A stretch of 64,000 bases of DNA from an uncultured Gammaproteobacteria bacterium (GTDB taxonomy: Bacteria > Pseudomonadota > Gammaproteobacteria > DRJJ01), in assembly GCA_947258795.1 (NCBI GenBank), contig CAMYJU010000016.1, positions 21,178-85,177 on the forward strand, written 5' to 3'. The notes under the pieces are model-generated. The model was not told where the DNA came from and searched no databases. It saw only the letters and a list, made by a program, of their open reading frames with translations. Both the position numbers and the translations under genes were made by a program. Positions 20,016-49,811 of this stretch are shown here, piece after piece (within the stretch, counting starts at the first letter, position 1; the number at the start of each line of letters is the position of its first letter).

Positions 20016-20461
20016 AAATACAACAAAGACTCGCCACACTAATAATGATATGCCTGGCCTTACTGGTCAGCACGTCGGTCCTTGCCGAAGGGGGCCTGTC
20101 TGTTAGTGATGCCTGGGTGCGTGAAGCACCACCTGGTGCACATGTGCAGGCCGGCTTTGTCATCATTCATAACGACAGCGATCAGGAGCGTAAGATCACC
20201 GCCGTACGCAGCCCGGCCTTTGGCAGTATCGAAATTCACAACATGCACATGGAAGACGGCATGATGCGCATGCAAAAGCAGGATACCCTGATTATACCAC
20301 CTAACAGTACCCTGAAGCTGGAGCCCGGGTCTTTCCACCTGATGCTGTTTGACCCGGTCAGGTACCTGAAAGCCGGGGACAGTGTTCACTTTACCCTGTC
20401 CACCGGGATGGGCACCTGCATAGACATCAAGGCCCCGGTTAAAACCGGTATGGGCAATTGA
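20012..20461 (+). CDS. Periplasmic copper chaperone PCu(A)C (DUF461)
   Basis: 149 aa; signal peptide, HxM/Met-rich motif (IHNMHMEDGMMRM); 4-bp overlap with SCO gene. Confidence 0.78.
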   Translation: MKIQQRLATLIMICLALLVSTSVLAEGGLSVSDAWVREAPPGAHVQAGFVIIHNDSDQERKITAVRSPAFGSIEIHNMHMEDGMMRMQKQDTLIIPPNSTLKLEPGSFHLMLFDPVRYLKAGDSVHFTLSTGMGTCIDIKAPVKTGMGN

Positions 20462-21336
20462 GTATGAAAACCAAACCCCTGGTACTGCTACAAACCCTGC
20501 TGCCGTTACATGCTCTGTCACGCGTCATGCACTGGCTGATGCGCAGCTCAAAACTGCCTGGCCACAACTTTTTTTTGCGCCTGGCGATACGCAAATACAA
20601 TATTCGGCTTGACGAGGTACTGGAACCCGATGTATTCGACCGCGACATCTACCCGGATCTGAACAGCTGCTTCACACGTGCACTCAAACCGGATGCGCGA
20701 CCGATCGCAAAGGGTGCGCAGGAAATCTGTTCACCTGCCGACGGCACCATCAGTGCGATCGGTCATCTGAACGATACCCTGCTGCTACAGGCCAAGGGAC
20801 ATGAATACACCCTGGGCGAACTGCTCGCCAACGATATCGGACTGATCAACCAGTTTCGAAACGGCGCTTACGCAACCATCTATTTATCACCACGCGATTA
20901 CCACCGCGTGCATATCCCGTTGACCGGCAAACTCACCAAAATGGTACATGTGCCGGGACGGCTGTTCAGCGTATCCCCGTATAACATGCAAAACATACCT
21001 CGTCTGTTCGCACGTAACGAGCGGGTCATCTCGGTATTCAATACAGCCATCGGACCGATGGTCGTTATCATGGTCGGTGCAATATTTGTCGGCTCAATCG
21101 AAACCGTCTGGGCAGGCGAAGTCACCCCGCCGGCCGGCAAGGAAATCAGCACCTCGATCTATCCGGAATCCGCCGGAGACAGCTTGAACAAGGGTGAAGA
21201 AATGGGTCGTTTTAACATGGGCTCTACCGTTATCGTACTGTTTCCGGAAAACACGGTTAAATGGAATGCCGATCGACAGGCGGACAGTAAAGTCAGGATG
21301 GGGGAGAATTTGGGGGAGTTAACTACGGGCGGTTAA
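20458..21336 (+). CDS. psd: Phosphatidylserine decarboxylase proenzyme
   Basis: 292 aa; LSPRDYHRVHIP and self-cleavage LGST-like site (MGSTV); 4-bp overlap with upstream gene. Confidence 0.93.
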   Translation: MSMKTKPLVLLQTLLPLHALSRVMHWLMRSSKLPGHNFFLRLAIRKYNIRLDEVLEPDVFDRDIYPDLNSCFTRALKPDARPIAKGAQEICSPADGTISAIGHLNDTLLLQAKGHEYTLGELLANDIGLINQFRNGAYATIYLSPRDYHRVHIPLTGKLTKMVHVPGRLFSVSPYNMQNIPRLFARNERVISVFNTAIGPMVVIMVGAIFVGSIETVWAGEVTPPAGKEISTSIYPESAGDSLNKGEEMGRFNMGSTVIVLFPENTVKWNADRQADSKVRMGENLGELTTGG

Positions 21337-21556: not shown

Positions 21557-21916
21557 TCATGAAATCTGATGCACCTCGGCAGCATGGTGTTCTTCCAAAC
21601 CCCGATGGGCGCTATGGAAAATATCCTGCAGCAGGCGTAGATCCTTCACCGTGAAGTCCATGAACATGATGCCGATACCATCGCCGTGACGATGCACCAC
21701 ACGGCCTGGTATCAGGCGGCTTTCTTTCACATCAACCGGATTCTGTATGACGACTTCGATCTTGCTGTTCAGTTTCATGTCCGGGTCGGGATAAACAATG
21801 TACATGCCACCCAGCCCCAGGTCACGGGTGCGGCAACCCTCGGTGATCTGGTCCTTGTAATAGAGATTCACCGCGAGCTCGATCGGCCTTCTTTCACTCC
21901 ACCTGTATTCTTCCAT
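21557..21916 (-). CDS. Single-domain PilZ c-di-GMP binding protein
   Basis: ORF 21557..21994, likely start MEEYRW; ERRPIE (RxxxR-like) and DLGLGG (DxSxxG-like) motifs. Confidence 0.65.
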   Translation of the reverse strand: MEEYRWSERRPIELAVNLYYKDQITEGCRTRDLGLGGMYIVYPDPDMKLNSKIEVVIQNPVDVKESRLIPGRVVHRHGDGIGIMFMDFTVKDLRLLQDIFHSAHRGLEEHHAAEVHQIS

Positions 21917-22025
21917 AGTCGCTACTCCCTGTTCGCTGGACTGGCAGCCGGTACTCAATAAGCGAAATGTAGTGCATTTGGGCCTTATAAGCAAAGACCG
22001 CTTGCCGACCGGGTCACACTATCGA

Positions 22026-23009
22026 TCATGCCCGTGTGAATGAAAATGCCATTACTTCATCTATGGTTTGAGCGCCGGTCAGCGCCATCAACACACGCTC
22101 CAGTCCGAGTGCAACCCCGGCACAATCCGGCAGCCCGGCCTCCAGTGCGGCCAGCAATAACGGGTCCGGTGTGTGGGCGTCCAGACCCAGTTGTTGGCGC
22201 TGTTGCTGGTCGCGTTGCATGCGCCGGCGCTGTTCGTGAGCATCGGCCAGTTCATGGAAGCCGTTAGCCAGCTCTATCCCTCCGACATAGACCTCGAAGC
22301 GCTCAGCGACTTCGGGTTGCCCTGGCCGAACACGCGCCAGCGAGGCCTGGCTGGCCGGATAGTCATAAACAAAACAGATTTCCTGCGCATCAAGCTGCGG
22401 CTCGACCTGGTGACTCAGGATCAGGTTCAACCAGTCATCGCGATCTTGCAGCTGGTCGGCATGTTCGAGCTGTATCCCCAGTGCCGTTGCCCGCTCGCGT
22501 AGCACCTCAATATCGTCCCGATGCGGATCGATACCGGTATACTGCGCAAACAACTCCGCATAGCTCACCCGCCTGAACTTGCTAAAACCGGCCTCATCCA
22601 GACCGATAGACAATAACAATTCCTGTACCTGGTCCATCAACTGATGATGATCGAAGCCCGGTTGATACCATTCCAGCATGGTGAATTCGGGGTTGTGGTG
22701 GCGTCCACGCTCGTCACGGCGGAACACCCGGCTGACCTGATACACCGGACCACAACCCGCCGCAAGCAGGCGCTTCATATGAAATTCAGGTGATGTTTGC
22801 AGGAACAGCTGCTGCGCCCCATGATAGGTAGCAAAGCTGTGCATGTGTACCTCGGTACTGGTGCTGTGGGCCAGTACCGGGGTTTCGACTTCAAGGAATT
22901 GCCGTTCAGAGAAAAACTGCCGGATATCGGTCAGCAGTTGAGCCCGGCGCTGCAGCATCTGCAGTGACGCCCCGGGTTGCCACGCAGCTGTGTCCTTATC
23001 CGCTGGCAT
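22026..23009 (-). CDS. epmA: EF-P--(R)-beta-lysine ligase
   Basis: 327 aa class-II aaRS catalytic-core paralogue (PoxA/GenX). Confidence 0.93.
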   Translation of the reverse strand: MPADKDTAAWQPGASLQMLQRRAQLLTDIRQFFSERQFLEVETPVLAHSTSTEVHMHSFATYHGAQQLFLQTSPEFHMKRLLAAGCGPVYQVSRVFRRDERGRHHNPEFTMLEWYQPGFDHHQLMDQVQELLLSIGLDEAGFSKFRRVSYAELFAQYTGIDPHRDDIEVLRERATALGIQLEHADQLQDRDDWLNLILSHQVEPQLDAQEICFVYDYPASQASLARVRPGQPEVAERFEVYVGGIELANGFHELADAHEQRRRMQRDQQQRQQLGLDAHTPDPLLLAALEAGLPDCAGVALGLERVLMALTGAQTIDEVMAFSFTRA

Positions 23010-23043
23010 TACCGATCAACGAATGACGCATATAGATTGCTTA

Positions 23044-23612
23044 TCAGTCCTTCGCCCGCGATACGTACTCACCGGTGCGGGTGTCGACCCTGATCACTTC
23101 ACCTTCATCGATAAACAACGGCACGCGTACGACCGCTCCGGTCTCCAGTGTGGCCGGTTTACCGCCACCACCCGAGGTATCGCCACGCACACCCGGATCG
23201 GTCTCGGTGATGGTCAGATTGACGAAATTCGGCGGCACTATCGAGATCGGCTCACCGTTCCACAGGGTAACCAGACAGGTATCCTGCTCTTTTAGCCATT
23301 TGTGACTGTCACCGACGGCGGCCTCATCGGCGGATAGCTGCTCATAGCTTTCCGGATCCATGAAATGCCAGTGCGTACCGTCGTTGTACAGGTATTGCAT
23401 TTCGGTTTCCATGACATCGGCCGCCTCGACCGATTCCCCCGACTTATAGGTTCGGTCGATCACGCGCCCGGTTTTCAGATAGCGCAGCTTGACCCGGTTA
23501 AAGGCCTGCCCCTTGCCGGGTTTGACGAATTCATTTTCAACAATTGCGCACGGCTCGCCGTCGATCATCAGCTTTAGACCCGAACGAAATTCACTAGTAT
23601 TATATGTTGCCA
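23044..23612 (-). CDS. efp: Elongation factor P
   Basis: Internal start [14 protein letters not shown] within ORF 23044..23817; KPGKGQAF loop carrying the modified Lys. Confidence 0.95.
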
Positions 23613-23652
23613 TGAATAGCCTACCTACGTCAGGATTAATCTCAATCTGCCT

Positions 23653-24669
23653 ATGATAACCCGAACTGCCACCCTGAGTCAGATACCGGACTGGCAAATT
23701 CAGCTTGCCAATGCGATCCGTGATATCGATGAACTGTTTGGATTGATAGGTCTCGCCCGTGAGGCGGTCCCGGAGCTGCTGAACGCACAGTCCGACTTCC
23801 CGATCAGGATTCCGCATGCCTATGCACGCCGCATCCAGCCTGGCAAGGCCGATGATCCCTTGTTGAGACAGGTGCTACCACTGTTACAGGAGTCACTGGC
23901 AGTGCCGGGTTACAGCCCGGACCCGGTCAGAGACCGGAATCAAATGCCTGTGCCGGGCCTGCTGCATAAATATCACGGCCGTGTGCTGCTAACCCTGACC
24001 GGCGCCTGCGCGATCCACTGCCGGTACTGTTTCCGGCGGCACTTCCCTTATACAGAGGCCAATCCGTGCGGTCAGGACTGGCCGCACACACTGGAATATA
24101 TCCGTCAGCAAACAGATATCGACGAGGTGATCCTCAGCGGCGGCGACCCGTTGAGCCTGAGTGATCAGCGCCTGGCCGGCATCAGCGAGGAACTGGGCAC
24201 GATTCCGCACCTCAAACGCCTGCGCATCCATAGCCGCCTGCCGGTGGTGATCCCGGACCGGGTCACGTCCCAGGTGACTGACTGGCTGGCCAGCTGCCGC
24301 TTGCAAACCATTATCGTGTTACATGTCAATCATGCGCAGGAACTGAATGAACACACTCGCCTGGCGTTTCAATGTTTGCGCGACGCCACTGACAGCCTGC
24401 TAAATCAAACGGTGCTGTTAAAAGATATCAATGATCAGGCCGGCACCCTGGCCACACTCAGTGAGGCGCTGTTCGATCAGGGCGTCATGCCTTATTACCT
24501 GCACTGCCTGGACCCGGTCGCCGGAGCGGCCCATTTTGACCTGCCTGAAAGCCGGATCAGTGAAATCTGGCAACAATTACGCGCAATCCTGCCGGGTTAC
24601 CTGCTACCGCGCCTGGTCAGGGAGATCCCGGGCGCATCCGCTAAAATCCCTTTTGAAATCATGGATTAA
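23653..24669 (+). CDS. epmB: EF-P beta-lysylation protein, lysine 2,3-aminomutase paralogue
   Basis: 338 aa; radical [11 protein letters not shown] motif. Confidence 0.92.
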
Positions 24670-24849: not shown

Positions 24850-26700
24850 GTGTTACAGCAATCCAATCCATTTGGCCTGTTAGTACCCGTCAGGAAGGTT
24901 CCGACCGATCCGGGTCTGGGCCTGCGTGCGAAGGAGGTCTCGGCATGGTTGCATGGCTTGCCACTGGCCAACCCGGATATCCTTGGCAAGACGCTGTACC
25001 GCCGTATCGCGGTAGAAAACCGCACCGAACACAAACCCAAGGACAGATTGCAGTTTATCGAGCAGCTTAGGGAGCAGGTGCTTTACTGCGTTGATCATTT
25101 CAAATCCAGCCTGGTCAAATCATCGTTGCCGATGAGCTCACGCAAGCTGAAGAATGCCACCCAGGCACGCGCCCTGCTCACCGAACTAACCAATGCCTAC
25201 AAGATCGCGGTGGTCGACCTGCTGCAGGAGACCCGAATCGATGACAAGGCTGTTGCACTGGCCAGTCAACGTGCAATCCACAGTCTGACCAGACTGTTAA
25301 TGGTCAATTATGCCCATTACACCCCGGCGCCACAGCATATCTGGATGGAATTACACCGCTTGTACCACCTGGCAGAGTCACGCGAACAGCTCAATCTCAG
25401 AATCAGGGATGAAATGCAGCCCTCCAGGCGCAGTTCGGTTGAACTGGAATACAAACGCATCCTGCTGTTATCGCTGGCCAATCCATATCGCCTGCGTCGC
25501 GATGACATCGCGCCGGTCTATAACGCCCTGCAGGAATGGGCACAGCAAGTCAAAATTGAACGTAACCCGCAGTTTGCCGATAACCGGCCCTGCTTTGTCA
25601 TCGATCTGGATTCAGACCAGGCACCGAACCAGATCCAGCAAAACCGGGTCACCGACCAGGTTTATAACCGCTATATAAACCTGGACCGGCTCAACAAACT
25701 GCTCAGGAAAAACCTGGATTCAGTAAAAAAGAAAAACAAAATATCAGGCAGCTTGAGCCACAACACCTTATACAAGCTGCTGATGACCTGGGATATCAGT
25801 AGCAAACGGGTATTCAGCCGCACAAGCAAACTGGGCAAACTGGATATCACCGTGGGCATCAATAATACCCATGATGAAATCGACCACGATATCGTGGAAA
25901 GCAGTCTGCTCGAGACAGCCGTTCTGACACCGGCAACGACAGACACCGGGAAACACGAACAATTACCACCGCCACTGGAACTGATCGATATCCAGACCGG
26001 GTTCACGGTAGAAAAGGTGCAGCCCACAGAAAAGCAGCTCGATGACCCATGGGACAAACAGCTACTGTACAAACAGGACACTCACAATGATGAGCAGAAC
26101 CACAAACCGGCCGGTCACAAGACCACCGAGCGTTTCGGTCCGGCCAAACAGACCTGGCGTATGCTGAATATCAGCGCGGGTGGTTATTGCATCATGTGGG
26201 ACAAGGACACACCGTGCCCGACACAGGTTGGTGAGATCGTCGGCATACAAGAGACCAGTCCGGGTGGCAAACAGATCTGGAGTATCGGCATCGTACGCTG
26301 GATGGAATACCGGCCCTCGAACGGTCTGAAAATGGGTATACAGCTGATTGCGCCCAATGCAATGGCCGTTACCACCTATCCCTATGGCCTCAAGCAGCCT
26401 GACGTGGAGAAAACACTGCAGCTACCGGATCTTCCTGTGATCGACCAGCCGGCCAGCCTGGTTACCTCTACCAGTCACTACGAGGTCGGGGATCGGCTGA
26501 TCGTCGACCATCATGGCCACACCACTGTGGTACAGCTGAGCGAAGTTCTGGAACAAACCGGAAACATAACCCGTTTCCAGTACCATGAATTGAATAACAA
26601 GGCCGTCACCGGCAACCTGCCCAGGACTGATACCGGCGACACCCAGGAAATCAGACTGAGCGATTTCCCGGATGATTACTGGAACTGGCCGGAATCCTGA
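24850..26700 (+). CDS. Hypothetical protein with C-terminal PilZ-like region
   Basis: 616 aa; no recognisable N-terminal domain; residues ~435-520 contain R...WRMLNISAGG (NxSxxG) followed by beta-rich segment. Confidence 0.5.
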   Translation: MLQQSNPFGLLVPVRKVPTDPGLGLRAKEVSAWLHGLPLANPDILGKTLYRRIAVENRTEHKPKDRLQFIEQLREQVLYCVDHFKSSLVKSSLPMSSRKLKNATQARALLTELTNAYKIAVVDLLQETRIDDKAVALASQRAIHSLTRLLMVNYAHYTPAPQHIWMELHRLYHLAESREQLNLRIRDEMQPSRRSSVELEYKRILLLSLANPYRLRRDDIAPVYNALQEWAQQVKIERNPQFADNRPCFVIDLDSDQAPNQIQQNRVTDQVYNRYINLDRLNKLLRKNLDSVKKKNKISGSLSHNTLYKLLMTWDISSKRVFSRTSKLGKLDITVGINNTHDEIDHDIVESSLLETAVLTPATTDTGKHEQLPPPLELIDIQTGFTVEKVQPTEKQLDDPWDKQLLYKQDTHNDEQNHKPAGHKTTERFGPAKQTWRMLNISAGGYCIMWDKDTPCPTQVGEIVGIQETSPGGKQIWSIGIVRWMEYRPSNGLKMGIQLIAPNAMAVTTYPYGLKQPDVEKTLQLPDLPVIDQPASLVTSTSHYEVGDRLIVDHHGHTTVVQLSEVLEQTGNITRFQYHELNNKAVTGNLPRTDTGDTQEIRLSDFPDDYWNWPES

Positions 26701-26716: not shown

Positions 26717-27238
26717 CTAATATACCTGGGTAAAAATAGACGGGTAAATAATATTACTGCCCTTCCCCAGGGTGTTATCTGTCAATTCCATCGCACTGAA
26801 CAGATCGAGCGAGATCGGCAGGCTGCAATGCAGATCCCAGTCTGATGCGGGTTTGAAGCCCAGCCGATGATAGTAATCCGGGTGCCCGGCCACAACAACG
26901 GCGCCATAACCCAGTTCTTTTGCCTTGTTGATTGCGTGTTCGACCAGCTCGGTCCCGATACCACGATGGGACTGTGACGGAACCACCGCCATCGGTGCCA
27001 GCGCGAGTATATCCACCCCGTCACGTTCATTTTGCAAACGCACCCGGGTGAGCAATATGTGCCCAACGATACGTTTGTTAAATTCGGCTACCAGTGACAG
27101 TTCGGGAATATAATTACTCGATTGCCTGAGCTGCTCTATCAGTCCTACTTCGTCATCACCCTCGAAGGCACTCAGATGTACGACATCGATAGCCTTGATA
27201 TCATCAGCATGCTCTGACCTGACAGTAATCTGATCCAT
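26717..27238 (-). CDS. GNAT family N-acetyltransferase
   Basis: 173 aa; acetyl-CoA motif A region RGIGTELVEHAINKAKELGY. Confidence 0.85.
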   Translation of the reverse strand: MDQITVRSEHADDIKAIDVVHLSAFEGDDEVGLIEQLRQSSNYIPELSLVAEFNKRIVGHILLTRVRLQNERDGVDILALAPMAVVPSQSHRGIGTELVEHAINKAKELGYGAVVVAGHPDYYHRLGFKPASDWDLHCSLPISLDLFSAMELTDNTLGKGSNIIYPSIFTQVY

Positions 27239-27664: not shown

Positions 27665-29806
27665 TTGGCTGATTACAGTCTTATATCCCGGGCTTTGGAG
27701 GCTGGTGTGGCAAAAGACAGAACTTTGCGGGTCATTATTGCCGAGGACTCGCAAAATACTGCTGAGAACCTGATTAGCATACTACGTAATGCAGGTCATG
27801 CCGTGCGTCAGCATTTGCTCAATGACGAAGCCACTCTGCTTGAGACCCTGAAGGAACAGCCGATCGATGTCATCTTCCTCGGTCTGAAAACCGAGGAACC
27901 CACCCTGGACCAGACCACCCGGCACCTTAAGCAACTGAAACTTGACCTGCCGATACTGGCGCTAGCCGATGAATATGATATCGAACTTGCCACAGATATC
28001 ATTCGCCAGGGCGCATCCGACCTGGTGGCCAGGGATCATCCCGAACATCTGCAACTGGTGGTCAAGCGTGAAATCTCACACCTGAAACAGCACCGCGAAC
28101 TGGCTGGTGCCAAACGCGTCGCGCTTGAATCCAGCAAACGTGCTGACGCCCTGCTGGACACCTCGGCAGATGCAATTACCTACGTACATGACGGCATGCA
28201 CGTCTATGCGAACCCGGTTTACCTGCGCATGTTCGGTTTCAAGAGCCTGGAGGATATCGAAGGTACACCGATCATGGACATGGTGGCGCCCGCAGATCAC
28301 AACAAGTTGAAAGATTTCCTGCGCTCCCGGCAGTCTGATGAAAGCAAGATGTCCAGTGAGCTGGATATTACCGGGCTAAAAACCGGTGGCGAGGAGTTCA
28401 ATGCCTCAATGGAATTCACGCCCGCCACCTTTGAGGGTGAACCCTGTACACAGATTATTATCCGCGCACGCCTGGGTGATAGCGAGGAACTGGAAAAACA
28501 ACTGAAGAGCCTGACCCGCAAGGACATGCTGACCGGGCTGGACAATCGTCAGCATTTCATGGATATGATTGACCGGGATCTGACACAGTTCCAGAACCAC
28601 GATAAGACCGGGGCGGTACTGTTCATCACCCCGGACAAGTTCAAGGAGATAAAAGAGAATATCGGCATGAGCGGCGCCGACCAGGTAACCCAGGAAATCG
28701 CCACGATCATGAAAGACTCGTTGCCCGATGCCTTGCGCACGGCGCGTTTCAGTGATTATTGCCTGACCGCCTTCCTGTCTGGTGAAAACAACAACGATAT
28801 CCTGCAAGCCGCCGAGATATTCCGGAAGAGTGCCGCGGATCATATCTATACAGTCGACGACAAGTCCATTTCGATTACCTGCAGTATCGGTGTCAGTATC
28901 GTTGGACCACTGGACAAGGCCGCGCAGGACGTTGTTTCCTATGCCGACCTGGCCTGCGAAATGGCCATGAAAGAAGGGGGCAACCGGGTACATTTACATA
29001 ACCCGATCGCGGACCGGGATGCTGAAAACCAGCGCGATGAACGCTGGCTAAATCTGGTACAACATGCCCTCAAAGATGACCTGTTCCAGTTAGTTTATCA
29101 ACCGGTAGCCAGTCTGCACGGTGAGCCCGGTGAACAGTATGAAGTACTGATCCGGATATCCGATCCGGGTGGTGAGGACGTGCTGCCCAGCCAGTTCCTG
29201 TCGGTTGCGAGCAAACACAACCTGATGACGCATATCGACCGCTGGGTCGTCAGTCATGCCCTGGTGGCACTGGAGGAACATCGAAAACAGGCGCATGACA
29301 CCCTGTTTTTAATCAAGATCTCGACCGATAGCCTGATCGAGGCCGAGTTCACCAGCTGGCTTCAGGAACAGATCAAGAAAAGCAAGTTACCCGGGGAATG
29401 CCTGGTGTTTGAAATATCTGCAGCCAGTATACACCTGCATATGAATACAGCCGCCGAGTTCGGCACCATGCTGTCCAAGCATGAGTGCCAGCTGGCAATT
29501 GAGCATTTCAAGGCCGATCATGATGCCTATCAGATGCTCAAATACGTCAAGCCTAACTTTATCAAAATTGACGGGCAGCTGATCCGCGAACTCTCGGCAA
29601 ATCCCGATAATCAGGAAACGGTCAAGAAGCTCGCTGGCAAGGCCTCGTCCATGGGTATCTCAACCATTGCACACTTTGTCGAGGACGCCAGTAGCCTGGC
29701 CGTGTTGTGGCAATGCGGCATCAACTACATTCAGGGTAACTTCCTGCAGGCACCGTCAGCGAAGATGGACTACGATTTCGAAGGCGAGGCCGAAGACGAG
29801 GCCTGA
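27665..29806 (+). CDS. FimX-like degenerate REC-PAS-GGDEF-EAL c-di-GMP receptor protein
   Basis: 713 aa, TTG/GTG start; receiver-like N-terminus lacking phospho-Asp (IDVIFLGLK); GGDEF site is SDYC; EAL is EVL; DDFGTG replaced by EHFKAD. Confidence 0.7.
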   Translation: MADYSLISRALEAGVAKDRTLRVIIAEDSQNTAENLISILRNAGHAVRQHLLNDEATLLETLKEQPIDVIFLGLKTEEPTLDQTTRHLKQLKLDLPILALADEYDIELATDIIRQGASDLVARDHPEHLQLVVKREISHLKQHRELAGAKRVALESSKRADALLDTSADAITYVHDGMHVYANPVYLRMFGFKSLEDIEGTPIMDMVAPADHNKLKDFLRSRQSDESKMSSELDITGLKTGGEEFNASMEFTPATFEGEPCTQIIIRARLGDSEELEKQLKSLTRKDMLTGLDNRQHFMDMIDRDLTQFQNHDKTGAVLFITPDKFKEIKENIGMSGADQVTQEIATIMKDSLPDALRTARFSDYCLTAFLSGENNNDILQAAEIFRKSAADHIYTVDDKSISITCSIGVSIVGPLDKAAQDVVSYADLACEMAMKEGGNRVHLHNPIADRDAENQRDERWLNLVQHALKDDLFQLVYQPVASLHGEPGEQYEVLIRISDPGGEDVLPSQFLSVASKHNLMTHIDRWVVSHALVALEEHRKQAHDTLFLIKISTDSLIEAEFTSWLQEQIKKSKLPGECLVFEISAASIHLHMNTAAEFGTMLSKHECQLAIEHFKADHDAYQMLKYVKPNFIKIDGQLIRELSANPDNQETVKKLAGKASSMGISTIAHFVEDASSLAVLWQCGINYIQGNFLQAPSAKMDYDFEGEAEDEA

Positions 29807-29815: not shown

Positions 29816-31057
29816 CTAATCCAGCACGTGTGATACAAGGCCATCCGCAAGCTTGGGCTCGAACCAGGTGGATTTGGGTGGCATCACCTCATTCGCATCA
29901 GCAACGGCCATCAGGTCTTCCAGCCTGGTTGGATACAGCGAAAAGGCCACAGCCATCTCGCCGCTGTCGACGCGCCTCTCCAGTTCAGTCAGGCCACGTA
30001 TCCCACCGACAAAATCGATACGCTTGTCACGACGTGGGTCACTGATACCCAGGATGGGCTCGATCAGTTCATTCGCAAGCAGGCTGACATCCAGACGACC
30101 CACCGGGTCATCGGTCGGTATCCTGTCAGTAGACAGTTGCAGCTTATACCATTGACCATCCAGGTACATACCAAACTCGGATGGTGCAGCGGGTTTAACC
30201 GGCTGACCTGAAGAAGTCACGCTAAAGCGTTCCTTTACCCTGGACAGGAAATCCTCTCCACTCAGTCCGTTCAGATCAGAGATCATCCGGTTGTAATCGA
30301 GTATTTGCATCTGGTTATCCGGAAAAATCACCGACAGGAAATAGTCACTGGATTCGTCACCTGAATGATCAAGGTTCGACTCCTTGCGCATCGCTCCCAC
30401 ACGCGAACCGGCAGCCGAACGATGATGACCGTCAGCAATATAAAGACAGTCCATGGCATCAAAATACCGACTGATCTGATCAATCGCATCCTGGTCATCG
30501 AGCACCCAGAAAGTATGCTGGACATTATCTGCCGCAGTCAGATCGTACAGGGGGTCCTGCTGCATGGCTTTGCCAACCAGCTCGTCTACCCCGGCATGAT
30601 GGCGGTAGGTCAGGAATACCGGACCGGTTTGCGCATTCAGTGCATCAATCTGTCTGACACGATCATTCTCCTTGTCCGGCCGCGTAAACTCGTGCTTGCG
30701 GATACGATTGCTGTCGTAATCCTTGACCGACGCAACCGCAACCAGGCCTGTCTGACTATGACCGTTCATAATCAGGCGGTAGACATAATAAACCGCCTGC
30801 TGCTCACGAATCAGAACTCCCTTGCTGACCATGTTGTTCAGGTTTTCCGCCCCTTTCGCATATACAGCGGCATCATATGGATCCGTCCCTTCCGGCAGAT
30901 CTATTTCAGGCTTGGATATATGCAGGAAGCTCCACGGCCGTCCAACAGCCATTTCCCGGGCCTCGGCGGTATTCAGTACATCATAGGGCGGTGCAACGAC
31001 ATCTTGTTCATGTCCGCTTGCTGGCCGCAGTCCGCGAAAGGGTTTTATCAACGACAT
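29816..31057 (-). CDS. DUF1015 family protein
   Basis: 413 aa; MSLIKPFRGLRPA...VVAPPYDV N-terminus typical of DUF1015. Confidence 0.8.
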   Translation of the reverse strand: MSLIKPFRGLRPASGHEQDVVAPPYDVLNTAEAREMAVGRPWSFLHISKPEIDLPEGTDPYDAAVYAKGAENLNNMVSKGVLIREQQAVYYVYRLIMNGHSQTGLVAVASVKDYDSNRIRKHEFTRPDKENDRVRQIDALNAQTGPVFLTYRHHAGVDELVGKAMQQDPLYDLTAADNVQHTFWVLDDQDAIDQISRYFDAMDCLYIADGHHRSAAGSRVGAMRKESNLDHSGDESSDYFLSVIFPDNQMQILDYNRMISDLNGLSGEDFLSRVKERFSVTSSGQPVKPAAPSEFGMYLDGQWYKLQLSTDRIPTDDPVGRLDVSLLANELIEPILGISDPRRDKRIDFVGGIRGLTELERRVDSGEMAVAFSLYPTRLEDLMAVADANEVMPPKSTWFEPKLADGLVSHVLD

Positions 31058-31353
31058 CTTTTCGATTCCTTATTCAGAACAGGGCTACTCATAACAACAA
31101 CACACTATTGTACCGGCTTGGATGCAGCTGTGCACCCGGACCGGGACAGCCATCAGCATATACCGCTCGATTGAACGATCTGGAAACTACCTGTCTAAAT
31201 AATGGAATGTTATTAAGCCTTACTCACAAGTTTATGGCCTATCTATCGATTAAACATGGTAATATTAATTAATATAGGCTATAAACCATATGTACTGTAC
31301 TAGATTTACACAGATGCAATCAGGCAATCGCGGTGCTTGTCAGATATTTCAAT

Positions 31354-31407
31354 ATGAAACAGGCTATTACAACACCTGTTTCATAAACAACATCTGACTC
31401 GTATAAT
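31354..31407 (+). promoter_or_regulatory. Perfect 10-bp inverted repeat (atgaaacagg N11 cctgtttcat) followed by a TATAAT hexamer upstream of the cyclase gene
   Basis: Read directly from sequence; lies in a 440-bp AT-rich non-coding stretch. Confidence 0.35.
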
Positions 31408-31499
31408 AAACAGGTAGCGCCAATAACAATAACAATTCGTGTCTGATTGAAGAACCTAGTTGTGATATATGCTAAGACTACCCTTGGGGGAAGCGGGAC

Positions 31500-33068
31500 G
31501 TGTTTCTGTCGAATAAAAAACGAGCTGGGCAAAACGGCAATATTCGTCAAGGTATAAGGGATAGCAAATCAATTAATAAGGATGCTGTCTACCGACACGT
31601 CTGGCGCTTCTGGCCACGCTATATTCCAATCGCATTAAAGTTGTCACTGGCCATAGGGGTGATGTTGAGTCTGGTCATGTTTTTACTTGGCGCGATCATT
31701 ATCCATAATCAGACCGAATTGTTGAACCACCAGATACTGAGTAACGGCCGCATCGTCGTCAAACAAATGGCCGAATCAGCCAAGGAACCCATACTGGCGA
31801 ATGATGTACTGCAACTGGATGTACTGACCAATAGCCTGGCCAGTTCCGATGATATTATTGGCACCTCTATCTACTCGGCGGAAGGCAAGTCCCTGTCCAG
31901 CGCCGGCCCCCAGCCCTTTGAACCCTATGCCCCACTGGCCGGCCATGACATGACCTACCTGAAAAGATCGCCGATTACCGTACCATGGACCTGGCAGGAT
32001 TCAGCCTATGGCGACCTGGATGCGATATCCTACATCAGCCCGATCAGCTACAAGAACATTACCGCCGGCTATGTACTGACTACCTTCAGCCGCAAGAAAA
32101 TGACCAGTAGTATCCGCGATTCGATCCATTCCATCGTGCTGGCCACCCTGTTCCTGATACCGTTGGGTATCGCACTTTCCTATTTCATTTCCAAGAACTT
32201 TGCCCGTCCGCTGCAGGAACTGATGGATGCCAGCCGCGCGATAGACCAGGGCGAATACCGCTATCGCCTGACTGAAAAACGCAATGATGAAATCGGTTAT
32301 CTGATGTCGGCTTTTAATAGCATGGCCCACGGTATGCTACAGAAAAAACAGGTGGAAGAGGCCTTCGCCAAACACGTGCCTGCCAGTGTGGTCAAAAATG
32401 TCCTGGCCAATCTGAATGGCATACAGCTTGGTGGCACCCATACCCAGGCCAGTGTCATGTTTCTGGATATCGAAGGATTCACATCCAAATCCGAAAGCCT
32501 CTCACCGACCGAGGTAGGTGAATTGCTGAACGAATTCTTTACCTATATATCGGATACCGTACACCTCTATAAAGGTACCATCGACAAGTATATGGGTGAT
32601 TGTGCCATGCTGGTGTTCGGGGTACCTGAACCGGATGACGACCATATATTCCACTCGATTTCCTATGCGGTTTTCTTCCAGAAACTGCTGGTCAGAATAA
32701 ATAATATACGCTTGTCCCGCAGTAAGCTCCCGGTCAAATTCCGCATTGGCCTGAATACCGGTGAAGTACTGGCCGGTAATATGGGCTCAATCGATCGTGT
32801 ACAGTTCACCGTCGTCGGCGATACCGTTAACCTGGCGTCACGCCTGTGCTCCTTGTCCAACCCTGAACAGGTTCTGATTACCGAAGAAACCTACAATATC
32901 CCTATGGTACGTAAACGTATCGTCGCTACACGGTTTGACACCATACATGTCCGGGGTAAAGCAAGTCCGGTAAGCCTGTATCAGGTACATGATGTGGTTG
33001 AACCATACCGGACTGACATGGAACAGGAAATCCGCAGAATCTTACTTAAAACCCAACAGACACAATGA
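31500..33068 (+). CDS. Membrane-bound class III adenylate/guanylate cyclase with periplasmic sensor and HAMP domain
   Basis: 522 aa, GTG start (true start uncertain); TM1-periplasmic region-TM2-HAMP; cyclase motifs VMFLDIEGFT, KYMGDCAMLVFG, FTVVGDTVNLASRL. Confidence 0.85.
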   Translation: MFLSNKKRAGQNGNIRQGIRDSKSINKDAVYRHVWRFWPRYIPIALKLSLAIGVMLSLVMFLLGAIIIHNQTELLNHQILSNGRIVVKQMAESAKEPILANDVLQLDVLTNSLASSDDIIGTSIYSAEGKSLSSAGPQPFEPYAPLAGHDMTYLKRSPITVPWTWQDSAYGDLDAISYISPISYKNITAGYVLTTFSRKKMTSSIRDSIHSIVLATLFLIPLGIALSYFISKNFARPLQELMDASRAIDQGEYRYRLTEKRNDEIGYLMSAFNSMAHGMLQKKQVEEAFAKHVPASVVKNVLANLNGIQLGGTHTQASVMFLDIEGFTSKSESLSPTEVGELLNEFFTYISDTVHLYKGTIDKYMGDCAMLVFGVPEPDDDHIFHSISYAVFFQKLLVRINNIRLSRSKLPVKFRIGLNTGEVLAGNMGSIDRVQFTVVGDTVNLASRLCSLSNPEQVLITEETYNIPMVRKRIVATRFDTIHVRGKASPVSLYQVHDVVEPYRTDMEQEIRRILLKTQQTQ

Positions 33069-34162
33069 ACCGTTTTACTATCCTGCTGCTCATGTTGTTC
33101 GCAGTTATCAGTGGCTGCCAGATACTGCCGGCAAAAAACGAGCATCGACAGATAGATGAACTGGATGCACTACGCAGTCTCAATGAATATGACAAGGCAC
33201 TGGCACGCGCGCGCCAGCTGAAAAATTACTTCAATACACCCACCCATAAAAAACTGCTACAGGATGTACGCAGCGAAGCGGACGCCTATGACGAACAACA
33301 GGCAAGCAAGGTACAGGCCAAAATCATCGAACAGGACTGGGGTGGCGCATATAAATTACTCAATGAATCGTTACGCAAGTATTCCGGCGGCGAAAAAATA
33401 CAGGCCGCCGAACGCGAGTTCATCAACCGTAATGCAGTAAGCCTGCGTGAGCTTTATGCACGCATGTTACTGGCCAAGGCCGAATGGCTGCTGCAATCAG
33501 AAAAAATCCAGCAGGCAATCAACGCCACCCAGGTCCGTGAAAAACCGGAGAGTTCAAACATCCTGCCGTCACCCGAGCGCAAGGCCATAGCACAACAGCT
33601 GTTTGACTTCGGCAAGGCTGCCTATAACGAAGGAAACCTCAATCTGGCCAATGACCTGTACACCATGTCAGACAGGCTTGACCCGACCCTGGATATCGGA
33701 CGCGCCCGGGCGCAGCTGGACCAGTTACGTTATCAGCGCATCCAGGAACAACAGCAGGTTCAGCAGGCCCAGCAACAGAAAACCAGGCTGCAAACTCAGC
33801 GCCGGATTAAAAAGCTCAGTAATGAAACAGAAGAATATCTGCGTACCGGCGACCTGGTTGCTGCACGCGTATGGTTGTCCAAGTTACGCGCCACTGACAG
33901 GCACAGCAAGGAATACGAAAAGCTGCGCAAGAAGCTGACAGAGAAAATGAGTTCGCGTATCGACACCATGATCCAGCGCGGCAATACCCTGTACAGCAAC
34001 AATCGCTATGAAGAGGCGATTCTGGTGTGGAAAAACGCACTGGAACTGGACCCAAACAACAGCAAGATCCAGGCGAATATCGCACGCGCCGAACGCATAC
34101 TCAAACGCCTGAACGAACTGGAGCGGCGCGAGAGCAATTCAGACGCGGCCCAGCAAAGGTAA
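33065..34162 (+). CDS. TPR/coiled-coil lipoprotein
   Basis: 365 aa; lipobox LFAVISGC; Gln/Arg-rich helices and TPR-like C-terminus; 4-bp overlap with cyclase gene. Confidence 0.6.
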   Translation: MNRFTILLLMLFAVISGCQILPAKNEHRQIDELDALRSLNEYDKALARARQLKNYFNTPTHKKLLQDVRSEADAYDEQQASKVQAKIIEQDWGGAYKLLNESLRKYSGGEKIQAAEREFINRNAVSLRELYARMLLAKAEWLLQSEKIQQAINATQVREKPESSNILPSPERKAIAQQLFDFGKAAYNEGNLNLANDLYTMSDRLDPTLDIGRARAQLDQLRYQRIQEQQQVQQAQQQKTRLQTQRRIKKLSNETEEYLRTGDLVAARVWLSKLRATDRHSKEYEKLRKKLTEKMSSRIDTMIQRGNTLYSNNRYEEAILVWKNALELDPNNSKIQANIARAERILKRLNELERRESNSDAAQQR

Positions 34163-46324: not shown

Positions 46325-49300
46325 TTATTTCAGGACAAAGGCCATTTTTTCCCTGGTCGCTGAATCATCAACATAGGCCGACAGCTGTTCCAGCGTCAGG
46401 GGATCACTGAAATATTCGCCCTGGTACAGGGTGCAGCCCTTGTTATGCAGGAAGCGCAATTGTTCTGCCGTTTCCACTCCTTCGGCGATCACATCCAGTG
46501 ACAAATGCTCGGACATCGCAATAATGGTCTGCACGATCGCGGCATCTTCTGTGTCGACCAGCAGGTCGATCACAAACGCCTTGTCAATCTTGAGTATATC
46601 CAGGGGCATACGTTTCAGGTAGGCCAGTGACGAGTAGCCGGTACCAAAGTCGTCGATGGCCAGCTCCACACCAAGCGCCTTCAGTGCATGCATTTTTTCA
46701 ATGGTGCTCTCTATGTTGGATACAACGATGCCCTCTGTCAGTTCCAGGGTCAACGCAGCCGGATCCACTCCGCTATCGTCGATACAGACTGCAACCTGGT
46801 GCACGAAATCCGGTTGCATAAATTGTCGTGGACTGACATTGACAGACATGTGCCGGATATTGCCAAAACGCTCATCTCCACTCCAGGTCTTCATTTGCCT
46901 GCATGCCTGTTCTATAACCCAGGCACCCACTTCCATGATCAAGCCCATTTCCTCAAGGATATGAATAAACTGGGTGGGCGGTATCAGACCCATTTCCGGG
47001 TGCTGCCAGCGTAGCAAGGCCTCCACACCCACCATACGCCCCGACTCGTTGACCTGTGGCTGATAGAGCAGAAACATCTCGTTAAATTCGATCGCATGCC
47101 TCAGATAACCTTCCAACATCAGTCTTTCGCTGGCCTCTGCCGCCATCGCCGGTAAATAAAACTGTACCGCGTTACGGCCTGCCGCCTTGGCGCGATACAT
47201 GGCCGTGTCGGCATGACGCAACACATCGTCCGGGGTATCCGCATCCACCGGGAACAACACTACACCAATGCTCGGACTGACATGTAACTCACGACCTTCC
47301 ACCTTGAAAGGCTCATTCAGCAGACCACGTATACTGTCAGCCAGTTGCTTGATTTTCTTGCCTGCCGCATGCCGTTCGTAACCCACATCCGGTATTAGCA
47401 TGACAAACTCGTCACCACCGAGCCTGGACACGGTCATGTTTTTCCCTGCGGCCGATATCAGGCGATTTGCGACCCCCTTGAGCAAGTGATCGCCCAGCGC
47501 ATGCCCGAGTGAATCATTGATATTCTTGAAATGATCGAGATCCAGATATAACAGGCCACCGAGTACCTCGTGGCGTTTGGCCATCATGATGGCCATATAC
47601 AGATGATCCAGCAGCAGGTTCCGGTTGGGTAAATCGGTCAGTGGGTCATGATTGGCCATATGGTGGACATGTGCCTCGATATTGCGGCGGTTGACCGCGA
47701 TTCCGGCCATACGCGTAGCGGTTTCCAGTATGCGCTTCTGGTAACTGTCCGGCCTGGCGGGTTTGAAATGAATCACGGACAGGGTGCCCAGCATGCTACC
47801 CTTGTCTGACTTGACCGGTATTGCCCAGCAAGCATGAATCTTGAATTCATCCACAACATCACGCGCCTGCGCCCAGCGTGGGTCCTCACTGGTATCATCC
47901 ACATAGACCGGCTCATCCAGACAGAATGCCGTCGCAGTGGAACCCGTTCCCATCTCGGGTAACATAAACTTCATCTCGTTGCCAAATTCCAGCGGGATAT
48001 TGGGGGCTGCCTTGAGCTCCAGGAAACCGCTCTCTTCATTGAAAAGGTGCAGCACACACACCACACCGGGCACCATTTTTTCCACTTCGTAGCACAAGGC
48101 GTTCAGTACCGACTGCAGGTCACCGCCGGTGGCAATCAGTTCCAGTATGCGCCGCTGGAAATTCAGTAACAGCCCGGCCTGTTTACGCTCATTGACATCA
48201 CGCACCTGTGCCAGCAGATAACGTCTTTTGCCAGGCAAGGCCACACGGCTCAGCGTAACCTCGACATCAATCACATGACCCATATCAGAAACGGTCGACC
48301 ATTCAAAACGGTATTCCCCTCCCTTCAGGGCCTGCTGCAGATAGACCGACATCGCACTGGAAGAAGTCTGGGTATTCGTACGCATGGAGATGGCCGAGAA
48401 GTCCTCCAGGCGCTTTCCGGTCATTTCTCCTTTACGGGTCGAAAAGAACAGCTCGGCGCGTTGGTTCACATCGAAGATCTGGCCATCCTCATTCAACAGG
48501 ATGACCGGGTCTATATTCTGCTCAAACAGATTTCGATAGCGCGCCTCGCTGTTGCGTAACGCCTCATCGATACGTTTTCTGTAGATCAGCAAGGCGTACA
48601 GGGAAAACACCATAACCAGCAGCAACACCAGCACAACCGCGACTATCCATACCTCGGACTTGTACTTCCAGTAAAGACTCTGCGGCAGATATTCGACCGT
48701 ACTGGCCGGCGGCAGCCGGTCCATTGGGATATCGAAGGCCAGCAGTTCGCGGTAGTCAAACATATAGGCATTCGGGCTTTCCTGAACAATCGGCACTTTA
48801 TCCACCGACACCCCTTTCAGCAATTGCAGTGCCAGGGACACGGCCACCTCACCCTGCAACACGCTGCTAGTCAGTTTTCCGCCGACCGCACCGCTACCGA
48901 GAAAAGAATCCCAGGTACCATACACAGGGGCATCGGTATATTTCTTGATAAACGCGACCCCTTCATTCAGCGTGAAACTGCGCCCATCCCTGGTCTTGAA
49001 CAGGGACAGGTTAAGAATGATTGCTTGCTCATCCAGTGCAGCCAGCTCCCTGGCCAGTACATGACTATCCAGGTTTTCGAGCTCCAGCACTTCCAGACCG
49101 GAAGGTAACTGGTGTTTGATCTGCCGGAGCTTCTCGAGTATAGCTGCGCCGGTTGTGGTTGCGTCGCTCACAACCGCCAGCCTGTTGCGTTCGGGATGCA
49201 GGCGGTATGCGACGTTAACCGTACCCAGCAGATCGTTGTCTTCAATCACACCGGTAACCGGATCCAGCCCGCTGATCAAATCATAGCCGAAATTATTAAT

Positions 49301-49696
49301 ACCACAGAAAACCACCGCTACTCCCGGAAACAAACTGTCCCGGTACTGACGCAGGAATTCCAGCGCATTGTTATCAGCCGCAATAATCAGTGCGGGCTTT
49401 TGATCCCGGTATTTTTGCCGGTAGAGACTGACCAGGGTGGGGAAAACAATGTTGGTCGCATGCTGTTTGCTGTCCATGTATTCGATCAGTAGCCGAATCT
49501 CCTGATCACCTTCCTGCAAGGCCTTTTTTACACCACGTGTTATTCCGTCAGTCCACGGATAACCCTGGTGATAGGAGTGTAGCAGCAGTACGGTAGGGGC
49601 CTGTTCAACAGCAGTCACCGCCGGACAGGTAAAGGGAAACAGCAGAAAGAGCGGCAACAGCCATTGATAAAGTCTGAAGTTTAAATGATGGCGCAT
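46325..49696 (-). CDS. Multidomain c-di-GMP turnover protein: periplasmic substrate-binding-like sensor, TM, PAS, GAF, GGDEF, EAL
   Basis: ORF 46325..49741 (start uncertain, possibly MRHHLNF signal peptide); intact RLGGDEF; EALLRW and DDFGTGYSSLAYLKRMP EAL motifs. Confidence 0.88.
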   Translation of the reverse strand: MRHHLNFRLYQWLLPLFLLFPFTCPAVTAVEQAPTVLLLHSYHQGYPWTDGITRGVKKALQEGDQEIRLLIEYMDSKQHATNIVFPTLVSLYRQKYRDQKPALIIAADNNALEFLRQYRDSLFPGVAVVFCGINNFGYDLISGLDPVTGVIEDNDLLGTVNVAYRLHPERNRLAVVSDATTTGAAILEKLRQIKHQLPSGLEVLELENLDSHVLARELAALDEQAIILNLSLFKTRDGRSFTLNEGVAFIKKYTDAPVYGTWDSFLGSGAVGGKLTSSVLQGEVAVSLALQLLKGVSVDKVPIVQESPNAYMFDYRELLAFDIPMDRLPPASTVEYLPQSLYWKYKSEVWIVAVVLVLLLVMVFSLYALLIYRKRIDEALRNSEARYRNLFEQNIDPVILLNEDGQIFDVNQRAELFFSTRKGEMTGKRLEDFSAISMRTNTQTSSSAMSVYLQQALKGGEYRFEWSTVSDMGHVIDVEVTLSRVALPGKRRYLLAQVRDVNERKQAGLLLNFQRRILELIATGGDLQSVLNALCYEVEKMVPGVVCVLHLFNEESGFLELKAAPNIPLEFGNEMKFMLPEMGTGSTATAFCLDEPVYVDDTSEDPRWAQARDVVDEFKIHACWAIPVKSDKGSMLGTLSVIHFKPARPDSYQKRILETATRMAGIAVNRRNIEAHVHHMANHDPLTDLPNRNLLLDHLYMAIMMAKRHEVLGGLLYLDLDHFKNINDSLGHALGDHLLKGVANRLISAAGKNMTVSRLGGDEFVMLIPDVGYERHAAGKKIKQLADSIRGLLNEPFKVEGRELHVSPSIGVVLFPVDADTPDDVLRHADTAMYRAKAAGRNAVQFYLPAMAAEASERLMLEGYLRHAIEFNEMFLLYQPQVNESGRMVGVEALLRWQHPEMGLIPPTQFIHILEEMGLIMEVGAWVIEQACRQMKTWSGDERFGNIRHMSVNVSPRQFMQPDFVHQVAVCIDDSGVDPAALTLELTEGIVVSNIESTIEKMHALKALGVELAIDDFGTGYSSLAYLKRMPLDILKIDKAFVIDLLVDTEDAAIVQTIIAMSEHLSLDVIAEGVETAEQLRFLHNKGCTLYQGEYFSDPLTLEQLSAYVDDSATREKMAFVLK

Positions 49697-49811
49697 ATCA
49701 GCATTCCTGGCTTGCCTGCCTTGTCCAGAAGCCGTATGCAAAACCCGGTGTCAGACCGCTCCTGTGTCTTTTTGCACCTTGATTGTATTAATAACAGGCC
49801 GGAAACACAAT

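What the first reader, a model, noticed from the sequence alone, without database searches (positions are those of the whole stretch)
24850..26700. 616-aa protein of unknown function with C-terminal PilZ-like motif next to FimX-like gene
I recognise no domain in the first ~430 residues. Near the C-terminus there is R...WRMLNISAGGYCI followed by a beta-rich stretch, resembling the NxSxxG half of a PilZ c-di-GMP site but with an atypical arginine spacing. Only a small convergent GNAT gene separates it from the FimX-like receptor. This suggests a c-di-GMP effector pair of undescribed function.
Basis: inference. Interest (0 to 1): 0.55.

Follow-up and report, generated by a model that had tools for sequence, protein, structure and literature searches.

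The report
FimW–FimX c-di-GMP pilus regulator pair
The 616-residue protein is an ortholog of FimW, a known cyclic-di-GMP receptor that promotes type IV pilus assembly in Pseudomonas aeruginosa, and it sits next to its usual partner gene fimX, so the finding is real but already described.

Summary
The ORF at 24850-26700 (+, 616 aa) is real and conserved. A protein identical to it carries the precomputed Pfam families PF27104 (FimW_N) and PF27125 (FimW_C). My local Pfam and NCBIfam copies lack these newer families, which is why no domain was recognised. FimW (PA4958) is a published c-di-GMP effector of type IV pili in P. aeruginosa, encoded beside FimX (PA4959) and psd (PA4957). The window shows psd, fimW and fimX in the same order, with other genes between them.

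The neighbour has the FimX hallmarks: a REC domain without the acceptor Asp, a degenerate GGDEF motif, and EVLxR in the EAL domain. The GNAT gene between the two occurs only in this clade.

"c-di-GMP effector pair" is right and "undescribed" is wrong. I could not obtain the PA4958 sequence for a direct comparison. Interest is low.

The parts
24850..26700 (+). fimW ortholog, 616 aa, GTG start. Architecture is FimW_N plus FimW_C.
   Evidence: ORF and translation. An identical protein, P0001, carries PF27104 and PF27125. Those accessions are named FimW_N and FimW_C. Family size.
24850..25749 (+). N-terminal all-helical domain (about residues 1-300), corresponding to FimW_N. Its function is not known.
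25807..25821 (+). R320-V-F-S-R324, the RxxxR half of the PilZ c-di-GMP site. It is preceded by K319 and by the conserved W314.
   Evidence: R320 and R324 are invariant in 23 sequences. R324 is invariant and R320 is >=90% conserved in 34 diverse sequences. Strand β1 (residues 329-335) follows directly in the model.
25924..26136 (+). Insertion between PilZ strands β1 and β2 (residues 359-429). It is predicted disordered and varies in length and sequence across the family. It contains a 'DDPWD' Trp motif and a PPP run.
   Evidence: pLDDT is below 50 for residues 359-429. The spacing between the two motif halves ranges from 42 to 159 residues, median about 105, in 286 relatives. Alignment.
26167..26184 (+). 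N440-I-S-A-G-G445, the [D/N]xSxxG half of the PilZ c-di-GMP site.
   Evidence: S442 and G445 are invariant. The first position is N in 240, D in 39 and S in 7 of 286 relatives.
26137..26595 (+). β-rich C-terminal region (residues 430-582). It holds the rest of the PilZ barrel plus further strands at residues 520-580.
26596..26697 (+). Disordered C-terminal tail ending in 'DDYWNWPES'. This is the family's conserved [DE]xxW end motif.
   Evidence: pLDDT is below 50 for residues 583-616. 202 of 286 relatives have [DE]xxW within the last 12 residues. Alignment.
26717..27238 (-). GNAT acetyltransferase gene, convergent with fimW. It is a clade-specific insertion between fimW and fimX and is probably not part of the system.
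   Evidence: Pfam Acetyltransf_1 at E 5e-10. It is present only in the window and in the closest relative L023 (88% identity). It is absent between fimW and fimX in L001, L002, L027, L030, L033 and L034.
27665..29806 (+). fimX ortholog, 713 aa, with REC-PAS-GGDEF-EAL architecture and degenerate motifs.
   Evidence: Pfam domains. The REC acceptor position is Gly, the GGDEF position reads SDYCL, and the EAL motif reads EVLIR. The same degeneracies occur in all 7 FimW-linked homologs. For P. aeruginosa FimX, the missing Asp and the GDSIF motif are, and EVL/R479 binding c-di-GMP is.
20458..21336 (+). psd (phosphatidylserine decarboxylase), a synteny marker. In PAO1 psd is PA4957, directly before fimW (PA4958).
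   Evidence: Pfam PS_Dcarbxylase at E 1.5e-63. psd lies upstream of fimW in L001, L002 and L005. PA4957 = Psd. PA4958 = FimW and PA4959 = FimX.
21557..21994 (-). Stand-alone canonical PilZ-domain gene (145 aa) in the same neighbourhood.
   Evidence: Pfam PilZ at E 9e-11 and 42.5 bits, above the cut-off. L002 has a PilZ gene in the same position.

Best explanation
The gene encodes an ortholog of FimW, the c-di-GMP effector described in Pseudomonas aeruginosa (PA4958). It lies next to an ortholog of FimX (PA4959).

Anatomy shown here:
- An N-terminal helical domain of about 300 residues (FimW_N).
- A C-terminal 'split' PilZ domain (FimW_C). KRxxxR (residues 319-324) and strand β1 are separated from NxSxxG (440-445) and the rest of the β-barrel by one helix plus a disordered insertion of about 70 residues.
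- Extra β-strands after the barrel, then a disordered tail.

Mechanism inferred from the P. aeruginosa literature and from the intact binding motifs: when cellular c-di-GMP rises, for example on surface contact, the dinucleotide is bound between the RxxxR arm and the NxSxxG face of the barrel. FimW then changes state (dimerisation is reported), accumulates at the cell pole, and promotes type IV pilus extension. FimX acts in parallel, binding c-di-GMP through its EVL-type EAL domain and engaging the PilB ATPase.

How FimW acts on the pilus machine is unknown even in P. aeruginosa. The GNAT gene between the two genes is a lineage-specific insertion. Because it runs convergent to fimW, fimW and fimX are separate transcription units here.
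For: - Family assignment: protein P0001, identical to the window ORF, carries PF27125 and PF27104. These are named FimW_C and FimW_N.
- Binding motifs: R320/R324 and S442/G445 are invariant. 286 of 291 full-length relatives keep both halves. With the insertion removed, Pfam PilZ is the only sub-threshold match in 5 of 10 family members, beginning at the RxxxR.
- Gene neighbourhood: fimW is followed directly by a REC-PAS-GGDEF-EAL gene in L001, L002, L027, L030, L033 and L034, and in L023 with the same GNAT between them. All of these neighbours share the FimX degeneracies.
- PAO1 gene order: psd PA4957, fimW PA4958, fimX PA4959. The review says 'FimX is encoded with FimW'.
- Published function of FimW.
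Against: - I could not obtain the PA4958 sequence, so homology to the characterised protein rests on the Pfam family names, the gene neighbourhood and the motifs, not on a direct alignment.
- No type IV pilus gene was seen among the window ORFs I scanned, so a pilus role in this organism is inferred only.
- fimW and fimX are not co-transcribed here, because the GNAT gene is convergent.
- The Pfam PilZ model does not reach its threshold. hhalign against the window's own PilZ protein is not significant.
- A more distant subgroup of FimW-like proteins (21-25% identity) is not linked to fimX, so family membership alone does not guarantee the pilus function.
- Reported fimW mutant phenotypes in P. 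aeruginosa are inconsistent between studies.
Confidence: 0.8

Rival explanations
1. It is a FimW-family c-di-GMP receptor, but in this organism it controls something other than type IV pili, such as another polar or envelope process. The FimX linkage would then be a conserved signalling module with a different output.
For: No pilus genes were found among the scanned window ORFs. The family is large and diverse, with 6510 representatives. A second syntenic subgroup sits beside Phosphonate-bd and DUF255 genes instead of fimX. FimX homologs act differently in different species.
Against: The window protein belongs to the fimX-linked, psd-proximal group, the same arrangement as in P. aeruginosa. 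In all studied species FimX is a pilus regulator. Pilus genes are usually scattered in gammaproteobacterial genomes, so their absence from 64 kb says little; this last point is from general knowledge.
Confidence: 0.12
2. It is a previously undescribed PilZ-like effector forming a novel pair with a FimX-like receptor.
For: The local Pfam and NCBIfam copies give no hit. No solved structure matches by sequence. Source annotations are almost all 'hypothetical protein'.
Against: Newer Pfam families named FimW_N and FimW_C cover the identical protein. The FimW-FimX pair and its function have been published since 2019.
Confidence: 0.03
3. The PilZ-like domain is a degenerate pseudo-receptor that no longer binds c-di-GMP, like P. 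aeruginosa PilZ or XCC6012, and the protein acts only as an adaptor.
For: The two motif halves are 116 residues apart instead of 20-30. The Pfam PilZ score is below threshold. Loss of binding is common in PilZ relatives.
Against: Both motif halves are under strong conservation across hundreds of relatives. That is not expected for a non-binding domain. tPilZ PA2989 binds c-di-GMP despite a separation of more than 90 residues at the same insertion site. FimW itself is reported to bind c-di-GMP.
Confidence: 0.05

Closest known systems
FimW (PA4958) of Pseudomonas aeruginosa; Pfam FimW_N (PF27104) + FimW_C (PF27125)
   Same: It has the same Pfam architecture. The size is about 600 aa. The intact c-di-GMP motifs agree with FimW's reported binding. 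It is encoded beside fimX and downstream of psd.
   Different: A convergent GNAT gene separates fimW from fimX. The epmA-efp-epmB genes and a PilZ gene lie between psd and fimW. The organism is an uncultured gammaproteobacterium whose closest relatives are MAGs. No direct alignment to PA4958 was possible.
Canonical PilZ domain (PF07238), e.g. PA0012, Alg44, YcgR, MotI, PlzD
   Different: The motif halves are 116 residues apart instead of 20-30. The sequence is below the Pfam threshold even after the insertion is deleted (14.2 bits against 22.5). The domain is fused to a helical domain of about 300 residues that is not seen in other PilZ architectures.
Tetramer-forming tPilZ (PF16823; XCC6012, PA2989, PlzB)
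   Same: The insertion is at the same place, between β1 and β2, giving more than 90 residues between the motif halves.
   Different: The tPilZ insertion is two long helices that build a tetramer, and those proteins are small and stand-alone. Here the insertion is one helix plus about 70 disordered residues of variable length. The domain is fused to FimW_N. There is no PF16823 hit.
FimX (PA4959), for the neighbouring gene
   Same: The architecture is REC-PAS-GGDEF-EAL at about 700 aa. The REC domain lacks the acceptor Asp, the GGDEF motif is degenerate, and the EAL motif is EVLxR.
   Different: The GGDEF position reads SDYCL rather than GDSIF. c-di-GMP binding and PilB interaction were not tested.

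Membership tests
FimW (Pfam FimW_N PF27104 + FimW_C PF27125) | Matches to both Pfam family models | tested here: met
   Precomputed annotation of P0001, which is 100% identical to the window ORF, lists PF27125.1 and PF27104.1. The names are given. The local Pfam copy lacks these models.
FimW (Pfam FimW_N PF27104 + FimW_C PF27125) | Encoded next to fimX, as PA4958 is to PA4959, and near psd (PA4957) | tested here: met
   fimX lies 965 bp downstream, with only a GNAT gene between. The two genes are directly adjacent in 6 relatives, and adjacent with the same GNAT in L023. psd is upstream. PAO1 gene order.
FimW (Pfam FimW_N PF27104 + FimW_C PF27125) | Direct sequence similarity to the characterised protein PA4958 | not tested
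   The PA4958 sequence could not be reached.
FimW (Pfam FimW_N PF27104 + FimW_C PF27125) | Binds c-di-GMP | not testable with these tools
   The RxxxR and NxSxxG motifs are intact and conserved, and the model has a PilZ fold. Binding itself needs biochemistry.
FimW (Pfam FimW_N PF27104 + FimW_C PF27125) | c-di-GMP-dependent polar localisation and promotion of type IV pilus assembly | not testable with these tools
   This is known only from P. aeruginosa experiments. No pilus genes were seen in the scanned part of the window.
Canonical PilZ domain (PF07238) | [quoted passage not shown] | tested here: met
   R320xxxR324 and N440xS442xxG445 are invariant or nearly invariant.
Canonical PilZ domain (PF07238) | About 20-30 residues between the two motifs | tested here: not met
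   The spacing is 116 residues here and has a median of about 105 across the family. The canonical spacing is quoted.
Canonical PilZ domain (PF07238) | Score above the Pfam gathering threshold | tested here: not met
   The full-length protein gives no hit. With the insertion deleted it scores 14.2 bits against a cut-off of 22.5. The best family member scores 20.8 bits.
Canonical PilZ domain (PF07238) | Six-stranded β-barrel PilZ fold | tested here: met
tPilZ (PF16823, XCC6012/PA2989 type) | Insertion between β1 and β2 | tested here: met
   The model places β1 at 329-335, the insertion at 337-429 and β2 at 433-442. The tPilZ insertion site is described.
tPilZ (PF16823, XCC6012/PA2989 type) | The insertion forms two helices that build a tetramer, and the protein is a stand-alone domain | tested here: not met
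   The insertion is one helix (337-358) followed by a disordered segment. The domain is fused to a helical domain of about 300 residues. There is no PF16823 match.
FimX (for the neighbouring gene 27665-29806) | REC lacking the acceptor Asp, PAS, degenerate GGDEF, and an EAL domain with EVL | tested here: met
   Domains. Motif columns. Reference features.

The most novel reading that the evidence does not exclude
FimW's PilZ domain may be a 'split clamp'. In this reading, c-di-GMP staples the RxxxR arm to the barrel and so closes the 40-160-residue disordered β1-β2 insertion into a loop. That closure would control access to two conserved Trp short motifs: D[VIL]W[DEN] inside the insertion and [DE]xxW at the extreme C-terminus. 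These motifs would be the docking sites for the still-unknown polar or pilus partner.

This would supply the missing mechanism for FimW. It is only a hypothesis built from conservation patterns. I found no statement of it in the papers I could read, but I could not read the primary paper (Laventie 2019).
Probability: 0.15. Interest if true: 0.45.

Novelty: already known. Interest (0 to 1): 0.15.

Why it matters
It matters little as a discovery. The gene pair is the known FimW-FimX module, and current Pfam annotates it automatically.

There are two modest points of value. First, the fimW-fimX module, usually near psd, extends well beyond Pseudomonas into uncultured sulfur-oxidiser-like gammaproteobacteria, and the family is large (6510 representatives at 50% identity). 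Second, the anatomy worked out here gives concrete handles on a protein whose mode of action is still described as unknown in a 2024 review. That anatomy is a split PilZ with a variable disordered insertion and two conserved Trp motifs.

Tried and rejected
**Attempts to get the P. aeruginosa FimW sequence for a direct alignment, all unsuccessful**
- A degenerate YKRxLLLSLAxPxxL scan of genome contigs gave 36 loci, none from Pseudomonas.
- A profile search returned only the original hits.
- A consensus-sequence search gave 1171 hits, but none of the 120 listed carried a Pseudomonas name.
- Cluster look-ups of high-GC-like representatives found no Pseudomonas.
- tblastn against plasmids found nothing.
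- The afdb50 fold library was unavailable.
- The primary paper, Laventie et al. 2019, is not held.

**Sequence-level links to PilZ**
- The local Pfam and NCBIfam copies gave no hit.
- A profile search against PDB sequences gave nothing.
- hhalign of the family profile against the window's own PilZ protein was not significant (probability 0.2%).
- Only the insertion-deleted constructs gave weak PilZ matches.

**Ideas considered and rejected**
- Membership of the tPilZ family. The insertion site is the same, but the insertion differs, the protein is a fusion, and there is no PF16823 hit.
- The GNAT gene as part of the system. It is present only in the window and its closest relative.
- The Pfam name referring to the Salmonella type-1-fimbria regulator FimW. 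That protein is a small regulator of chaperone-usher fimbriae (as I recall it; searches show only paper titles on it). This does not fit a family of about 600-aa, PilZ-containing, fimX-linked proteins that some sources call 'cyclic-di-GMP-binding protein'.

Full report
**1. The observation**

The ORF 24850..26700 (+, GTG start, 616 aa) exists as described. A GAGG lies about 10 nt upstream of the start. The ORF is clearly a gene. It has full-length homologs at 62-66% identity and many at 20-31%. A profile built from 23 homologs finds 6510 representatives of 50%-identity clusters at E<=1e-3, of which 3220 have E<=1e-30, nearly all 530-650 aa long.

The local Pfam and NCBIfam copies return nothing for it.

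A convergent 173-aa GNAT gene lies at 26717..27238 (-). A 713-aa REC-PAS-GGDEF-EAL gene lies at 27665..29806 (+).

**2. What it is**

The homology search showed that a protein identical to the window ORF (P0001), and almost all its relatives, carry two precomputed Pfam families, PF27125 and PF27104. These are newer than my local Pfam copy. The gene tables of related contigs give their names: FimW_N (PF27104) and FimW_C (PF27125).

FimW is PA4958 of Pseudomonas aeruginosa. It is a c-di-GMP-binding protein that moves to the cell poles when c-di-GMP rises after surface contact, and it promotes type IV pilus assembly. A 2024 review states that 'FimX is encoded with FimW' and that FimW's exact function is still unknown. 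In PAO1, psd is PA4957, fimW is PA4958 and fimX is PA4959.

**3. Gene neighbourhood**

The window order is:
- SCO1, PCuAC, then psd (20458-21336)
- a PilZ gene (21557-21994, -)
- epmA, efp, epmB
- fimW, GNAT, fimX
- DUF1015, a HAMP-cyclase gene, a TPR gene, parC

A 30%-identity homolog (L001) shows nearly the same order but without the PilZ gene and the GNAT. L002 shares the core psd, PilZ, epmA, efp, epmB, fimW, fimX.

By tblastn, fimW is followed directly by a fimX-like gene in L001, L002, L027, L030, L033 and L034. In the closest relative, L023, the same GNAT (88% identity) lies between them. So the GNAT is a clade-specific insertion and the fimW-fimX pairing is conserved.

A more distant subgroup behaves differently. 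It has 21-25% identity and includes Thiohalophilus and other MAGs. Its members sit beside a Phosphonate-bd family gene and a DUF255/thioredoxin gene, not beside fimX. One of them is followed by a PAS-GGDEF cyclase. The most distant homologs also lack fimX.

**4. Anatomy of the protein**

The alignments show these residues invariant: R66, Y117, Y201, W314, R320, R324, S442, G445 and G496. In a set of 34 sequences that are at most about 33% identical to each other, R324 and G445 stay invariant, and R320, S442 and W314 are at least 90% conserved.

R320 and R324 lie in 'SKRVFSR', a KRxxxR motif. N440-I-S-A-G-G445 is a [D/N]xSxxG motif. The arginines it paired with that motif (R428, R437) are not conserved. 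The true first half lies 116 residues upstream.

Across 291 full-length relatives, 286 keep both halves. The spacing ranges from 42 to 159 residues, with a median of about 105.

The AlphaFold2 model (mean pLDDT 77, pTM 0.76) contains, in order:
- a helical domain up to about residue 300
- strand β1 at 329-335, directly after RxxxR
- a helix at 337-358
- a disordered segment at 359-429
- β-strands from 433 to 580
- a disordered tail at 583-616

**5. Test of the PilZ fold**

- BcsA, PlzA and MapZ lower down

The remaining hits are generic helical repeats that match the N-terminal domain.

Foldseek gives PlzD, MotI, MrkH, Alg44 and PP4397 as its best hits. It aligns about 185-198 columns to the two-domain proteins, which suggests that the strands after the barrel (residues 520-580) form a second small β-domain.

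At the sequence level the link is weak. I made constructs with the insertion removed. Pfam PilZ was then the only match in 5 of 10 family members (E 5e-4 to 0.07, 14-21 bits, cut-off 22.5), and the match began at the RxxxR. hhalign against the window's own PilZ protein was not significant. No PDB chain matched the profile by sequence.

That criterion is not met. The fold is PilZ, and the matching family, FimW, is listed among PilZ-domain effectors.

**6. The neighbour is FimX-like in detail**

The following hold in the window protein and in all seven FimW-linked homologs:
- The REC phospho-acceptor position is not Asp (Gly in the window).
- The GGDEF position is degenerate (SDYCL in the window).
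- The EAL motif reads EVL or EIL followed by xR (EVLIR in the window).

P. aeruginosa FimX has a REC domain without the Asp and a degenerate GDSIF motif. [quoted passage not shown]

**7. Comparison with known kinds**

The protein is a member of the FimW family by Pfam architecture and by gene neighbourhood. It works like a PilZ receptor but fails two formal PilZ criteria, namely motif spacing and the Pfam threshold.

Its β1-β2 insertion is at the same site as in tetramer-forming tPilZ proteins (XCC6012, PA2989). PA2989 binds c-di-GMP despite a gap of more than 90 residues at that site. The FimW insertion, however, is one helix plus a variable disordered stretch, the domain is fused to FimW_N, and PF16823 does not match. 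It is therefore not a tPilZ.

**8. Mechanism and its status**

Shown here:
- family assignment
- a predicted PilZ fold
- conserved binding motifs
- conserved pairing with a FimX-type gene

Inferred from the literature:
- c-di-GMP binding
- polar recruitment
- stimulation of pilus extension

Unknown everywhere:
- the partner and the mode of action

Mutant phenotypes also differ between studies.

Main caveats:
- I could not retrieve PA4958 for a direct alignment. The attempts are.
- The primary paper is not held.
- No pilus genes lie in the parts of the window I scanned.

**9. Verdict**

It is wrong on novelty, because this is the described FimW-FimX pair and the family is already in Pfam. Interest is low (0.15).

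The only forward-looking element is structural. The split PilZ and two conserved Trp motifs in disordered regions could help explain how FimW works. I give that reading a low probability.

Noticed in passing
window 21557-21994 (-): A stand-alone canonical PilZ-domain protein (145 aa; Pfam PilZ E 9e-11, above threshold) lies between psd and epmA, about 3 kb upstream of fimW. L002 has a PilZ gene in the same slot (L002:4343-4714). This makes a third c-di-GMP-related gene in the neighbourhood.
   Followed up: partly
window 26050-26070 (about residues 402-407, 'DDPWDK') and 26671-26697 (residues 608-616, 'DDYWNWPES'): The FimW family has two conserved Trp-containing short motifs in predicted-disordered segments. 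D[VIL]W[DEN] lies inside the PilZ β1-β2 insertion in 136 of 286 relatives. [DE]xxW lies at the extreme C-terminus, typically as 'DFDSIWSSL', in 202 of 286 relatives. They could be docking motifs.
   Followed up: partly
L007, L009, L010, L037, L041 (and other 21-25% identity hits): A second syntenic subgroup of FimW-like proteins is not next to fimX. It is flanked by a divergent Phosphonate-bd (PF12974) gene and a convergent DUF255/thioredoxin gene. In L009 a PAS-GGDEF cyclase follows directly. The distant homolog in L004 also has a Phosphonate-bd gene nearby.
   Followed up: partly
window 22026-24669 (epmA -, efp -, epmB +), directly upstream of fimW: The EF-P β-lysylation set epmA-efp-epmB is kept next to fimW in L001, L002, L027, L033 and L034. 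The window FimW and its 62-66% identity relatives have a PPP run ('LPPPLELID') in the insertion, which other relatives lack. The linkage is probably just conserved gene order. The 257-aa efp ORF is over-extended, since the Pfam and tblastn matches start near residue 67-74.
   Followed up: no
window 29816-34162: DUF1015 (-), a HAMP plus class III nucleotidyl cyclase gene (+) and a TPR gene (+) follow fimX. The same DUF1015 and HAMP-cyclase genes follow fimX in L001, and DUF1015 follows it in L023 and L033. A cAMP/cGMP-type cyclase is therefore kept near the c-di-GMP receptors.
   Followed up: no
window 46325-49741 (-): A large PAS-GAF-GGDEF-EAL protein (1138 aa) has strong matches to both catalytic domains. 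It is a likely c-di-GMP turnover enzyme about 17 kb from fimX.
   Followed up: no
window 26717-27238 (-): The GNAT gene is more conserved between the window and L023 (88%) than FimX (78%) or FimW (65%). It is absent from the fimW-fimX junction in the other relatives.
   Followed up: partly
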